Shown here: positions 27,001 through 30,000 of the stretch, one piece after another | Layout: the number at the start of each line of letters is the position of its first letter | Position numbering within the stretch: position 1 is the first letter of the stretch | DNA from: Escherichia coli | GTDB taxonomy: Bacteria; Pseudomonadota; Gammaproteobacteria; Enterobacterales; Enterobacteriaceae | Strand: one strand, 5' to 3' | DNA length: 64,000 bases | Assembly: GCF_001677475.2 (NCBI RefSeq) | Contig: NZ_CP015229.1 | Position numbers: made by a program

Positions 27001-30000
27001 CAAATTCTTGCTGTTACTATGGATGTTCGGGCATAAATATACCTGCCAATAAGGTGAAGCATCCGCGATTTTAGTCGAGTCTGCTCACCCATAGGGCGTT
27101 AAATATTATTTTTTTCATTTCGAACATAAGTATATTTCATAACACAGGCGAGTGCTGATTTAAAAACCGGCCATATTTCAATGTACGTTATTAACGCCCT
27201 CAAAAATATATTTTTCTACTTACGCACCGTAGGACGTCCTCTATAGCTAACGCAGCGACCTGCATCAAGTAACTTTTGAATTCTGTCGATCCTTTGCTTT
27301 GAGAGCAAAATAATCTGAAATTGCCATGAAAATAAAAAATTCATTATCATAGAGAATAGCAATCCACCAATGTCCGGAGCTAACGCCAACCAGGTGCTGA
27401 AGATCCTGCTGTCACGCACTGTCATCGTATCCACTAAGATAATGAGATTAACAAATGTAGTTACAGACAAATAATAACAGAATAGCATGGCGCATAAACA
27501 CAGGAGGCCACTCCCCCATCGATTTCTCGCGAATTTATACGCATCGGAATATCCGACAAAAATCTTGCCTCCGGATTCATTAAAACTGAATATATCGAGG
27601 ATCTTTCGGCCATAAGAAATTAGCTGAATAATTTCGAAAGCATTATCGTAACAAAGTAATTTTTTTAAAACCGTAGCCGGTATTGGCCTGCTGCTGTGTA
27701 TCCTTGATATACAGGCCTGAACAACATACGGATTTGGATTGTTATTAGATAATTCTTTTGAAAGTGCATCAATAATACCTGTTTTGTTTTTAGCGCTACC
27801 GTGAATAAAATTAACCAGTAATGCCAGGACAGAAACAAGGATGGGTAAAAAAGAAACAGCATATTTGATCATGATTATAAAATCCATTGAAGATAAGAAA
27901 AACTAACACCCCAAAATTATTCAAGTATAATCAGGCGATATCCCCGAACATAACCAGTGAAGTACATTGTGTAGATTAAGACATTATGTTACGTCAGGAT
28001 TTAACTGGCAATGCTAGTCGCACCTCATTTTTGCGATGGTATAACGGGAATAGCGCTTTATCTATGAAAATTTTGAAGTTATGAGACATAGAATCTTATT
28101 TTGATAGTGACTGGCACAATAAAATGAAAGACGTTAAACCGAAACAGATAATCTGTGTCGAGAGTGGGCTATTATTCAACGGTAATAACACCACCTTCAG
28201 AAAAGGTGGTGTTTGGGGAGAGATTGAATCAGCTCCCCTTAAGCCTGAATCAAACGTTTAAACAAAAGCTGCTGCATATCCTGCCTGTGAGCCAGGATAG
28301 CATGCACGGTCACACCGTTGTCTTCCACTGAATAAAGTACACGATATCCATCAGCGCTGTTGAACTCACGGTACCTAGCGCGTCCACTAACGACATTGAC
28401 GCAACTCCCGCACCCATGCCCCGCCCTCGTCCATCTTTATCCGTGGACACCAAGGCCTGAGCGGGCATTCGGATACGAAAACCACTTTACCTGCACTGCA
28501 GGTGCCCCGTATTTCCGTCACCCTCAGGTTGGACCCTGTAAATAATTCTGTGTAACTGCCACCGTATTAAAGGTGATCGCGCAGGCGGTCACCGAACACA
28601 ATAATAAAACGGCTCATTGCCAGCCGCCAGTTCTGGATAGGCATACTCCATTTTTTCGACGCATCCTTGATCGCCAGATAAATAACCTTGCGTACCGAGT
28701 CGTCAGTCGGAAACACCTTGCGTTTTTTGATGGCTGCACGGATAACGCTGTTCAGCGACTCGATGGCATTCGTGGTGTAAATTGCCTTGCGAATATCAGC
28801 CGGGTAACCGAAGAACGTATTGAGGTTTTCCCAATGCGCACGCCAGCTTTTGCTGATTTGCGGATATTTATCGTCCCAGACTTTCACGAACGCATCGAGC
28901 ACCATCAGCGCGGCCTCTTCGGTCAGGGCCTGAAACTGTTTTCAGGCCGCTGGTGACGGCTTTGTAGTCCTTCCAGGACACGTATTTCAGGCTGTTACGC
29001 ACCATACGGATGATGCACAGCTGGATATGGGTCTGAGGGTAGACGCTGTTGATTGCATCCGGGAAGCCCTTAAGGCCGTCCACACAGGCTATCAGGATGT
29101 CCTGCAGGCCCCGTTTTTTTCAGCTCCGTCAGTACAGCGCCTTCGTTTTCGGCCAGCCTCATACCCAGTAATTCTTTCTGACCTTGGGTGTTGATGCCCA
29201 GCGCAAGGAACACTGCTTTATTCATCACGCTGCCATTCTGACGGACTTTTACGACAATGCAGTCCATATTAACAATGGGATACAACGCATCCAATTGCCG
29301 GTTTTGCCACTCGTTGACCGGCTCTTTGACGGCGTCGGTGACTTTAGATATCAGCGTGGGCGATACATCGGCATCGTACATCACTTTAAAGGTGGCGACG
29401 ATTTCGCGCGTGCTCATGCCTTTGGCATACAGGGATAAAATCTGGCTGTCCATCTGCGTGATAGTGTTTTTGACGAGTAGCCATTGCGGGTGTTCGAGCC
29501 TGTTTTGGGGCATTTTTCTCATGCCCGAGATGGTCAGTCAGCTCCGCATTGAGCGCTGTTTCGACGGTTAACTTCGTCAGCATACAGGAAAACTGATTGA
29601 GGTCGGCTACGGTTTTAAGACCTTTGGCCAGTTCAGCCGCAAGGGCCCTGAGTTTCTTGTCGTCCATAATTTGCCTGTCTCCATTGTTGGAGTTAACATA
29701 TCAAAAACAGGCAATTACACAATTTTAATTACAGGCTCCGTCATTCTGCCAGCATGATAGAAATTAATAATAAACCCCATGCTCCAGGCGTGTGATCAAT
29801 TTTATGATCTCGTAAGCCCCGGTTTCGGATGCCATTAGTTCTGATGGTTCTTTCCAGTTCAGTACCATATTCGGCGACTTTAACCATTTGCAGGCTCCCT
29901 CTTTGTCACCTTCGAATAGTTCTACCGCCCTGTCAATAATGCGGATACAACGCACCAGCCGTTCGCTGTGTGTGGCACTGAATCGAGTTCTCAGGCTGCG

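What the first reader, a model, noticed from the sequence alone, without database searches (positions are those of the whole stretch)
27216..27887. Orphan AT-rich membrane protein gene next to the CBASS operon
A 223-aa predicted membrane protein with no recognisable motifs is encoded convergently just downstream of cap3 inside a defence-rich cargo region. It is a candidate for an uncharacterised defence or abortive-infection component.
Basis: inference. Interest (0 to 1): 0.4.

Follow-up and report, generated by a model that had tools for sequence, protein, structure and literature searches.

The report
Unnamed membrane protein riding defence islands
The gene is real and encodes a three-helix inner-membrane protein from a tiny, never-named family found only in enterobacteria, always on mobile DNA or among anti-phage genes (once in the slot where phage lambda keeps its exclusion genes), so it is a reasonable but unproven candidate for a stand-alone phage-exclusion protein rather than a part of the neighbouring CBASS system.

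Summary
The ORF is real. It lies at 27216..27887 (-), with a probable start at 27872, giving 218 aa. It is AT-rich and convergent with cap3. It encodes a protein with three predicted TM helices and a conserved ~90-aa domain, predicted cytoplasmic. Pfam, NCBIfam, PHROGs, PADLOC, PDB and BFVD give no match. It is not a lone ORFan: 31 cluster representatives exist among 1.84 billion proteins. Every source organism or record identified is Enterobacterales, all named members are "hypothetical", and dN/dS is 0.13-0.21.

I examined about 17 genomic contexts. The gene is next to a type II CBASS only in its three closest relatives; two of those share one Tn7-like transposon lineage. Elsewhere it follows a CI-like repressor in a lambdoid prophage (the lambda rexAB position). 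It also sits in a prophage-end accessory region, or beside Lamassu, PD-Lambda-4, KAP NTPases, restriction-modification (RM) genes, a small SAM methyltransferase or a plasmid tyrosine recombinase.

Best reading: a stand-alone, mobile-element-borne inner-membrane exclusion or defence protein. Its architecture resembles P22 SieA but it is not homologous to it. It works independently of CBASS. The function is inferred from context only. Interest is modest.

The parts
27216..27872 (-). Coding sequence of the 218-aa family protein (stop codon 27216-27218). An alternative upstream ATG at 27887 would give 223 aa.
   Evidence: ORF. RefSeq annotation of the identical gene in NZ_CP039559.1 as a 218-aa hypothetical protein. 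Homologue N-termini align to M6. dN/dS 0.13-0.21.
27801..27866 (-). TM helix 1 (about residues 3-24 in 218-aa numbering). The N-terminus is predicted to be periplasmic.
   Evidence: Kyte-Doolittle maximum 2.49. AF2 helix 2-41. Orientation follows the positive-inside rule, which is an inference.
27531..27800 (-). Conserved soluble domain (about residues 25-114) of three short helices plus a beta-hairpin. It is predicted cytoplasmic and carries net positive charge. This domain is the family signature.
   Evidence: AF2 elements H48-58, H66-73, H78-91, E95-100, E103-108. It is the most conserved region in A1 and A2. K/R 13 against D/E 7.
27429..27518 (-). TM helix 2 (about residues 119-148).
27390..27428 (-). 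Short loop between TM2 and TM3, predicted periplasmic. It is the most variable internal segment of the family.
   Evidence: Highest entropy of all internal regions. Topology is inferred.
27303..27389 (-). TM helix 3 (about residues 162-190), containing the conserved F-S-W-Q motif.
27219..27302 (-). Basic C-terminal tail. It holds a conserved juxtamembrane motif (S-x-x-R-I-x-x-I-x-x-L-L) and is predicted cytoplasmic.
   Evidence: 9 K/R against 2 D/E. Conservation.
27983..28011 (-). Only sigma-70-like promoter match upstream of the gene (TTGCCA-17-CATAAT). The support is weak.
   Evidence: The number of matches in the region is not above the shuffle expectation.
26891..27215 (.). Convergent spacer between the cap3 stop and the gene's stop. 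It is not conserved among the three CBASS-linked relatives and has no significant structure.
   Evidence: blastn leaves this spacer unaligned. Fold z = -0.58. No Rfam family.
19402..26890 (+). Context only: type II CBASS. Cap4 19402-20949, CD-NTase 20955-22100, Cap2 22097-23932, Cap3 26417-26890. An IS66-family element at 23898-26402 interrupts it.
19089..38425 (.). Context only: Tn7-like transposon carrying the gene as cargo. Ends lie at 19088-19115 and 38398-38425. tniQ-like, tnsD, tnsC, tnsB and tnsA span 31331-38266 on the minus strand.
   Evidence: 28-nt inverted ends with repeated AAAGTTGT boxes. TnsA/TniB/TnsD/TniQ domains. Annotation of the reference plasmid.

Best explanation
The gene encodes a stand-alone inner-membrane protein that mobile elements (prophages, plasmids, Tn7-like transposons) and defence islands of Enterobacterales carry as a phage-exclusion or defence factor. 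It acts independently of the adjacent CBASS.

Predicted anatomy: short periplasmic N-terminus, TM1, a conserved basic ~90-aa cytoplasmic alpha/beta domain, a TM2-TM3 hairpin joined by a short variable periplasmic loop, and a conserved basic cytoplasmic tail.

The mechanism I commit to is inferred, not shown. Like P22 SieA, which has the same TM1 / cytoplasmic segment / TM2-TM3 / short tail layout, the protein sits constitutively in the inner membrane. There it interferes with the step at which an incoming phage genome or its ejection or tape-measure conduit crosses that membrane. The variable periplasm-facing part would be the phage-facing surface, and the conserved cytoplasmic domain would bind a conserved partner.

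Shown here: the gene is real, it is under purifying selection, it belongs to a narrow family, it has the membrane architecture described, it is not homologous to any known family, and it sits on mobile elements and in defence contexts. Inferred: topology, the defence function and the entry-block mechanism.

Confidence is about 0.42 that it is an exclusion or defence protein of some kind acting without CBASS, and about 0.25 for the SieA-like entry-block mechanism specifically.
For: (1) It is a real, selected gene. dN/dS is 0.13-0.21. Full-length homologues number 31 representatives of 50%-identity clusters.

(2) Three TM helices plus a conserved soluble domain are predicted. The AF2 model has pLDDT 84. 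Hydropathy and charge bias agree.

(3) Prophage contexts. In IMG/VR prophage L028 the homologue lies directly downstream of, and co-directional with, the CI-like repressor (HTH_3 + Peptidase_S24). It is opposite cro/O/P, and the simple scan finds no terminator between the two genes. This is the position of rexAB in lambda and of bstA in BTP1, a recognised slot for lysogen-expressed defence genes (PMC8585504). The commonest homologue, P0013, lies in the accessory end of a lambdoid prophage between dinI and an HNH gene, next to tail-fibre genes.

(4) Defence-island contexts: type II CBASS; Lamassu plus a KAP NTPase in Tn7-like cargo; PD-Lambda-4 plus a Gabija-like pair; a REase-like HATPase plus a C5 methyltransferase; HEPN_STY4199; Mrr; an MTase_II/PRTase/CARF-like cluster; KAP NTPases. 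Tn7-like cargo is known to be rich in defence systems (PMC8649781, listed).

(5) Every copy examined is AT-rich (29-39% GC). Enterobacterial hosts are typically above 50% GC (my own knowledge, not measured here), which would make the gene look horizontally circulating.

(6) The predicted periplasmic loop is the most variable internal region, and the cytoplasmic domain and tail are the most conserved.

(7) P22 SieA is a 162-164-aa inner-membrane protein with three TM helices. It is a solo gene that blocks DNA delivery (PMC10883804). Its sequence shows the same segment order.
Against: There is no experimental or direct computational evidence of any anti-phage activity.

There is no homology to SieA, SieB, RexB or any PADLOC model.

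Guilt by association is weak for a small AT-rich gene, because such genes accumulate in variable regions anyway.

Some contexts have no recognisable defence genes: Enterobacter asburiae L008-13 and Ewingella L037. Two contexts are next to T6SS genes.

Classic Sie genes are confined to prophages, whereas this family is also chromosomal and plasmid-borne.

A recurrent upstream methyltransferase suggests some members may work as a pair.
Confidence: 0.42

Rival explanations
1. Abortive-infection effector. The cytoplasmic domain senses a phage cue, and the TM2-TM3 hairpins oligomerise to depolarise or permeabilise the inner membrane, killing the infected cell. This is RexB-like or CBASS/Pycsar TM-effector-like logic, but within one polypeptide.
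For: The defence-island and rex-slot contexts are the same as for the best explanation. TM2 and TM3 are long helices (39 and 47 residues in the model) with conserved polar residues (S-W-Q) in TM3. The conserved cytoplasmic domain could serve as a sensor.
Against: There is no homology to RexB or to any PADLOC TM effector. No partner sensor gene is conserved. A constitutively expressed solo pore-former would need tight control, and no antitoxin-like neighbour is conserved. TM2 and TM3 are conserved mainly in hydrophobicity across the wider family.
Confidence: 0.18
2. Accessory or regulatory component of the adjacent type II CBASS, for example a membrane-localised modulator or a second effector.
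For: The same convergent cap3/gene arrangement recurs in the window, in E. coli L014/L015 and in metagenome contig L020. The shared block ends about 12-70 nt upstream of the gene's ATG. L020 is in a different kind of island, integrase-bounded and without the Tn7 end.
Against: Only the three closest relatives (77-100% identity) of about 17 contexts are near a CBASS. The window and L015 belong to one Tn7-like lineage, so they are not independent. The gene is convergent with the operon, not co-transcribed with it, and the spacer is not conserved. It has diverged far more than the CBASS core: 79% against 91% nucleotide identity, with dS about 0.9. It matches no PADLOC CBASS model. This CBASS already has a complete Cap4 nuclease effector.
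Confidence: 0.05
3. Protective membrane protein unrelated to phage. Options are orphan immunity against a membrane-targeting toxin (T6SS effector or pore-forming bacteriocin) or a conjugative entry-exclusion factor.
For: Two contexts adjoin T6SS genes: Hcp-VgrG-Rhs in Pectobacterium L016 and ImpA/VasL in E. kobei L027. Several copies are on conjugative plasmids. From my own knowledge, not tested here: immunity proteins to pore-forming colicins and F TraS are small polytopic inner-membrane proteins.
Against: The gene is never adjacent to a cognate toxin gene in a toxin-immunity arrangement. In L016 the Rhs toxin has its own Imm11-like gene. The gene is not inside tra operons. The prophage repressor-adjacent and prophage-end positions do not fit this reading.
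Confidence: 0.12
4. One half of a two-gene module with a 241-aa class I SAM methyltransferase whose joint function is unknown. On this reading the window copy has lost its partner and may be a decaying remnant.
For: The methyltransferase lies 148-209 nt upstream on the same strand in Pectobacterium (L016), E. cloacae (L017-19) and an Enterobacteriaceae island (L021-23). A 30-residue relic lies at the same place in Leclercia L024 (tblastn E = 6e-4).
Against: No relic of the methyltransferase exists upstream of the window copy or in L015/L020. Copies without the methyltransferase remain intact and under purifying selection, in both the window lineage and the prophage lineages. The methyltransferase is absent from the more distant branches.
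Confidence: 0.1
5. Functionless hitch-hiker: an AT-rich ORF maintained only by linkage to mobile DNA.
For: The family is extremely rare. It is absent from 5,426 complete E. coli genomes, and a peptide-pattern scan of 100,044 species-representative genomes found no relative. Truncated copies persist on 100+ Klebsiella plasmids. No strong promoter or ribosome-binding site is evident.
Against: dN/dS is 0.13-0.21 over dS up to about 2. The length and architecture are conserved down to ~20% identity.
Confidence: 0.05

Closest known systems
P22 SieA (superinfection exclusion protein A; Pfam PF26849)
   Same: Both are solo genes carried by temperate phages of Enterobacteriaceae. Both are small inner-membrane proteins with three predicted TM helices arranged as TM1, cytoplasmic helical segment, TM2-TM3, short conserved cytoplasmic tail. 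Both occupy an accessory (moron) position near tail genes in some prophages.
   Different: There is no detectable sequence relationship: hhalign probability is below 1% with a SieA profile, and PF26849 is not hit by any of the 37 family members. This protein is ~55 residues longer, and its cytoplasmic domain includes a beta-hairpin. It lacks the SieA motif FxRYPxEAxxFNK. It does not sit between genes 16 and 9 of P22-like phages. It also occurs on plasmids, transposons and chromosomal islands.
Lambda RexB (with RexA) and the cI-downstream defence slot (also BstA of prophage BTP1)
   Same: One family member occupies the same slot, immediately downstream of and co-directional with the prophage repressor. 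RexB is also a polytopic inner-membrane protein.
   Different: There is no homology to RexB. No RexA-like partner gene is present. RexB is 144 aa (annotation). BstA is a soluble DNA-associated protein, so only the location is shared.
CBASS membrane effectors and accessory Cap proteins
   Same: It is physically adjacent to a type II CBASS in the window and in two relatives, and it is a membrane protein.
   Different: It matches no PADLOC CBASS model. It is convergent with the operon rather than in it. Most of the family occurs without CBASS. This operon already encodes a Cap4 nuclease effector.
Lambda/P22 SieB
   Same: Both are prophage-encoded membrane-anchored exclusion proteins with a cytoplasmic domain.
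   Different: There is no homology. From reading the lambda SieB sequence, the TM segments are N-terminal and the soluble domain is C-terminal, a different order.

Membership tests
P22 SieA family (PF26849) | Sequence membership: Pfam PF26849, or profile similarity to SieA types | tested here: not met
   PF26849 is absent from Pfam scans of the target and of all 37 family members at E <= 1. hhalign of A2 against P22 SieA, and against a 7-sequence SieA profile, gives probability 0.24% and 0.08%.
P22 SieA family (PF26849) | Inner-membrane protein with three TM helices | tested here: met
   Three hydrophobic segments and three long helices are predicted. This is prediction only; membrane localisation was not measured.
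P22 SieA family (PF26849) | Conserved cytoplasmic C-terminal motif FxRYPxEAxxFNK (PMC10883804) | tested here: not met
   The motif is absent from the target sequence (direct reading and output). The C-tail consensus here is S-x-x-R-I-x-x-I-x-x-L-L.
P22 SieA family (PF26849) | Gene located between ejection-protein gene 16 and tailspike gene 9 of P22-like prophages | tested here: not met
   The contexts found are Tn7-like cargo, islands, plasmids, lambdoid cI-downstream and the dinI-HNH prophage end.
P22 SieA family (PF26849) | Blocks phage DNA delivery without killing the cell | not testable with these tools
   This requires phage infection and K+ efflux or DNA-entry assays.
Lambda RexAB abortive-infection system | Homology to RexB | tested here: not met
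   hhalign probability is 0.34%.
Lambda RexAB abortive-infection system | Two-gene unit with a RexA-like sensor | tested here: not met
   In L028 the only gene between the repressor and the convergent Mrr-like gene is the family member. No conserved partner exists across contexts.
Lambda RexAB abortive-infection system | Located downstream of, and co-directional with, the prophage repressor | tested here: met
   This is met in prophage L028 only. It is not the situation in the window.
CBASS (accessory or effector gene) | Match to a known CBASS effector or Cap family | tested here: not met
   PADLOC gives no hit for the target or for any of the 37 members beyond scattered chance-level matches.
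CBASS (accessory or effector gene) | Co-oriented in the operon and co-occurring with a CD-NTase across homologues | tested here: not met
   The orientation is convergent and the spacer is not conserved. CBASS is present in 3 of about 17 contexts.
Any catalogued defence family (PADLOC v2.0.0), phage family (PHROGs), NCBIfam or Pfam | Significant profile match | tested here: not met
   The best single stray hit is PD-T4-5 at E = 0.003 in 1 of 37 members, which is about chance level for 37 queries.

The most novel reading that the evidence does not exclude
The family is a previously unrecognised single-gene anti-phage system of Enterobacterales. It would be a membrane-anchored protein with a new cytoplasmic alpha/beta domain (three helices plus a hairpin; my reading is winged-helix-like and basic). 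That domain would engage incoming phage DNA or the DNA-delivery machinery at the inner membrane. Prophages would carry it in the rex slot, and Tn7-like transposons and plasmids would carry it as cargo.
Probability: 0.3. Interest if true: 0.55.

Novelty: new variant of a known kind. Interest (0 to 1): 0.35.

Why it matters
If the gene does exclude phages, it would add a new and very small single-gene defence family to the list. It would also give a second, non-homologous example of the SieA-type three-TM inner-membrane architecture. That comparison could help explain how such proteins block genome entry, a step that remains poorly understood even for SieA.

It also shows that genes sitting beside a well-known system (CBASS) in transposon cargo can be independent passengers.

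Practically, the gene travels on IncHI1B resistance/virulence plasmids of Salmonella 1,4,[5],12:i:-. Truncated relatives are widespread on Klebsiella plasmids. Any effect on phage susceptibility would therefore matter for phage therapy against these hosts. The family is rare and there are no functional data, so expectations should stay modest.

Tried and rejected
- **Profile libraries.** Pfam, NCBIfam, PHROGs and PADLOC were scanned with the target and with all 37 family members. Nothing matched.
- **PDB sequence profile.** Nothing matched.
- **Known exclusion proteins.** hhalign against lambda RexB, lambda SieB, and P22 SieA (single sequence and profile) gave no similarity.
- **Occurrence searches.** E. 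coli complete genomes by megablast and blastn gave no match. GenBank phages by tblastn gave none. A peptide-pattern scan of species-representative genomes found no relative of the query. A2 was too divergent for pattern scanning.
- **Methyltransferase relic.** None was found upstream of the window copy.
- **Regulatory RNA or structure in the flanking spacers.** No Rfam family was found, and the 3' spacer fold has z = -0.58.
- **Promoter and terminator scan.** The number of matches is not above shuffle expectation.
- **Literature.** A search by accession numbers returned no papers.
- **Rejected ideas.** RES-toxin replacement: the gene is unrelated to the nearby Xre/ParS antitoxin, from which an IS256-family pseudogene separates it. 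Transposition function: the family also occurs without any tns genes.
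Full report
**Observation**

The window has an ORF at 27216..27887 on the minus strand, encoding 223 aa. 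The identical gene on five Salmonella enterica IncHI1B plasmids is annotated from the sixth codon as a 218-aa hypothetical protein, WP_053265773.1. Most homologues begin there too. The likely CDS is therefore 27216..27872.

The gene is 38.5% GC, against 46-50% for the CBASS genes next to it. It is convergent with cap3 across a 325-nt spacer.

The neighbouring operon is a bona fide type II CBASS:
- Cap4 SAVED-nuclease, 19402-20949
- CD-NTase, 20955-22100
- Cap2 E1-E2, 22097-23932
- Cap3 JAB, 26417-26890

**Is it a real gene?**

Yes. A search of 5.8 billion clustered proteins found 13 clusters at 49-100% identity. An exhaustive profile search of 1.84 billion 50%-identity cluster representatives found only 31. 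All the full-length ones are about 200-250 aa and align end to end. Every organism name or source record attached to a member is an Enterobacterales genus: Salmonella, Escherichia, Enterobacter, Leclercia, Pectobacterium, Cronobacter, Klebsiella, Serratia, Pantoea and Ewingella. Every name is "hypothetical protein".

Pairwise dN/dS is 0.13-0.21 wherever dS is not saturated, so the protein is under purifying selection. All copies are AT-rich (29-39% GC).

The family is rare:
- It is absent from 5,426 complete E. coli genomes.
- A peptide-pattern scan of 100,044 species-representative genomes found no relative.
- It is absent from GenBank phage records.
- Two IMG/VR prophage contigs carry it.

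**The protein**

Hydropathy gives three TM segments. An AlphaFold2 model built on a 37-sequence alignment reaches mean pLDDT 84. In 218-aa numbering it shows:
- a long N-terminal helix (2-41) that includes TM1;
- a small soluble domain of three short helices (48-58, 66-73, 78-91) and a beta-hairpin (95-108);
- two long helices (115-153 and 158-204) that form the TM2-TM3 hairpin.

Charge distribution points to the soluble domain and the C-tail being cytoplasmic, and the N-terminus and the short TM2-TM3 loop being periplasmic. K/R-rich flanks border the soluble domain, and the C-tail has 9 K/R against 2 D/E. This topology is inferred.

Across the family, the cytoplasmic domain and the juxtamembrane C-tail are the most conserved regions. 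The predicted periplasmic loop is the most variable internal region. Only one residue, the Glu of the S-K-E-L motif, is at least 90% conserved over all 37 sequences. That argues against a conserved catalytic centre.

No library recognises the protein:
- Pfam, NCBIfam, PHROGs and PADLOC, for the target and for all 37 members;
- a PDB sequence profile;

The helix-helix-helix-hairpin order of the soluble domain resembles a winged helix. I could not test that because the structure jobs were exhausted.

**Where the family lives**

I examined about 17 distinct contexts.

*CBASS.* The same convergent cap3/gene arrangement occurs only in the three closest lineages: the window, E. coli L014/15 and metagenome L020.
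- The shared block ends 12-70 nt upstream of the gene's start codon.
- The CBASS core is 91% identical at nucleotide level, cap3 is 84.5% and the gene only 78-80% (dS about 0.9).
- The spacer between cap3 and the gene does not align.

*One transposon lineage.* In the window the gene lies inside a ~19.3-kb Tn7-like transposon.
- Its inverted ends at 19088-19115 and 38398-38425 carry repeated AAAGTTGT boxes.
- It encodes tnsA, tnsB, tnsC, tnsD and a tniQ-like gene.
- The same end motif sits beside the E. coli CBASS, so those two contexts are one transposon lineage and not independent.
- A related Tn7-like element in E. cloacae (TnsC 56% identical) also carries a family member at 63% identity, there alongside Lamassu and a KAP NTPase.

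*Prophages.* In IMG/VR contig L028 the gene lies immediately downstream of, and co-directional with, the CI-like repressor. It is opposite cro/O/P, the simple scan finds no terminator between the two genes, and a convergent Mrr-like endonuclease follows. Lambda has rexA-rexB in this position and prophage BTP1 has bstA there. The slot is highly transcribed in lysogens and is known for defence genes (PMC8585504). The most abundant family member, P0013, sits between dinI and an HNH gene at the tail-fibre end of a lambdoid prophage.

*Other neighbours.*
- PD-Lambda-4 and a Gabija-like pair
- a REase-like HATPase with a C5 methyltransferase
- HEPN_STY4199
- KAP NTPases
- an MTase_II/PRTase/CARF-like cluster on Klebsiella plasmids, where the gene is truncated to 110 aa by an insertion-sequence fragment

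*Recurrent non-defence neighbours.*
- A 241-aa class I SAM methyltransferase lies directly upstream in three lineages, with a relic in a fourth.
- A tyrosine recombinase lies directly upstream on two plasmids.

*Contexts with nothing telling.*
- Two contexts show no recognisable defence genes.
- Two contexts adjoin T6SS genes.

**Interpretation**

The gene is a solo passenger of mobile elements and defence islands. It is not a CBASS component. It is convergent with the operon, its spacer is not conserved, it has diverged more than the operon, and CBASS is absent from most of the family's contexts.

The best-supported function is a stand-alone inner-membrane exclusion or defence protein. Supporting points are the rex slot, the prophage-end accessory position, the Tn7-like cargo (known to be defence-rich; PMC8649781, listed) and the many defence neighbours.

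For mechanism I favour a SieA-like block of genome entry at the inner membrane. P22 SieA is a 162-164-aa solo-gene inner-membrane protein with three TM helices that interferes with the ejection-protein conduit (PMC10883804). Its sequence shows the same order of segments. The variable periplasmic loop combined with conserved cytoplasmic parts fits a phage-facing outer surface. However, the family is not homologous to SieA, nor to RexB or SieB.

An Abi-type pore is the main rival. Weaker alternatives are:
- immunity against membrane toxins;
- a two-gene function with the methyltransferase;
- a CBASS accessory role;
- a functionless hitch-hiker, which the dN/dS values argue against.

Nothing here demonstrates any phenotype.

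**Comparison and novelty**

The protein resembles known prophage membrane exclusion proteins in architecture and genomic habit. It fails every sequence- or motif-based membership test I could run. I rate it a new family within a known functional kind, conditional on function.

Interest is modest. A candidate single-gene defence family is a useful lead, but the family is rare, confined to one order, and supported only by context.

**Side observations**

- The window's CBASS differs from the five reference plasmids by a 2,505-bp IS66-family insertion at 23898-26402, flanked by an 8-bp duplication (TGAATATT). It splits the overlapping cap2 stop and cap3 start. Cap2 gains 11 residues, and cap3 loses its ATG and its coupling to the operon.
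- An IS256-family transposase pseudogene (28567-29667) lies between the gene and an Xre/ParS-type antitoxin gene (29764-30210). That antitoxin has no RES toxin partner.

Noticed in passing
window 23898-26402 (with flanks 23890-23897 and 26403-26410): An IS66-family element (tnpA/tnpB/tnpC, ends GTAAGCG...CGCTTAC, 8-bp target duplication TGAATATT) is inserted exactly at the cap2-stop/cap3-start overlap. Cap2 gains an 11-aa tail. cap3 loses its ATG (native ATGAATATT) and is separated from the operon by 2.5 kb. The five otherwise near-identical Salmonella IncHI1B plasmids lack this insertion. Cap3 is the CBASS negative regulator (my knowledge), so this copy of the system may be deregulated or otherwise altered.
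   Followed up: partly
window 19088-19115 and 38398-38425 (also 6300-6316): These are the ends of a ~19.3-kb Tn7-like transposon, with 28-nt inverted repeats and repeated AAAGTTGT boxes. It encloses CBASS, the target gene, an IS256-family remnant, an Xre antitoxin gene and tniQ-tnsDCBA. No matching 5-bp target duplication was seen. A third end-like motif with two mismatches lies at 6300-6316, possibly a remnant of another element.
   Followed up: partly
window 28567-29667 and 29764-30210: A frameshifted IS256-family (Mutator-type) transposase pseudogene abuts an Xre/MbcA/ParS-type antitoxin gene that has no RES/MbcT-like toxin gene downstream. The toxin appears to have been lost, leaving an orphan antitoxin. 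About 500 bp of unassigned non-coding DNA (27960-28470) lies between the IS remnant and the target gene.
   Followed up: partly
L016 3478-4203, L017 9127-9852, L021 9066-9791; relic at L024 ~9841-9930: A 241-aa class I SAM methyltransferase lies 148-209 nt upstream of the family gene, on the same strand, in three lineages. It lacks a DPPY/NPPY DNA-methyltransferase motif on inspection and has a weak PADLOC 'mad2' hit. A 30-residue relic remains in a fourth lineage. This may be an ancestral two-gene cassette.
   Followed up: partly
L031 6936-8489; L032-L035 about 6720-8940: On an E. kobei plasmid and on IncFII-type plasmid contigs, a 330-aa tyrosine recombinase (78% identical between the two) is followed 37-45 nt later by a distant family member. 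In the IncFII contigs a 158-aa ORF with no family match overlaps the member's 3' end. A KAP NTPase or a DUF4365 giant protein lies just upstream, in divergent orientation on the IncFII contigs.
   Followed up: partly
L030 (OW849367.1) 5953-6285, and about 128 Klebsiella plasmids: A distant family member is truncated to 110 aa by what looks, by eye, like the C-terminal fragment of an ISL3-type transposase. The truncated copy is widespread on conjugative Klebsiella pneumoniae plasmids. It sits next to a four-gene cluster (MTase_II, PRTase_III-A-like, a 665-aa unknown protein and a CARF6-like protein) that looks like an uncharacterised defence system.
   Followed up: no
window 19320-27958 compared with L015 and L020: Divergence across the shared CBASS block is mosaic. 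cap4-cdn-cap2 are 91.4% identical, cap3 is 84.5%, the target gene is 78-80%, and the intervening spacer cannot be aligned. This suggests recombination has homogenised or replaced the left part of the block.
   Followed up: no
L021 7775-8632: The island carrying the methyltransferase plus family gene pair abuts a truncated ChlI/Mg-chelatase-like (comM/yifB-type) gene. From my own knowledge, comM is a known insertion site of some Tn7-like elements, so this island may be another such transposon. The window-type end motif was not found there.
   Followed up: no
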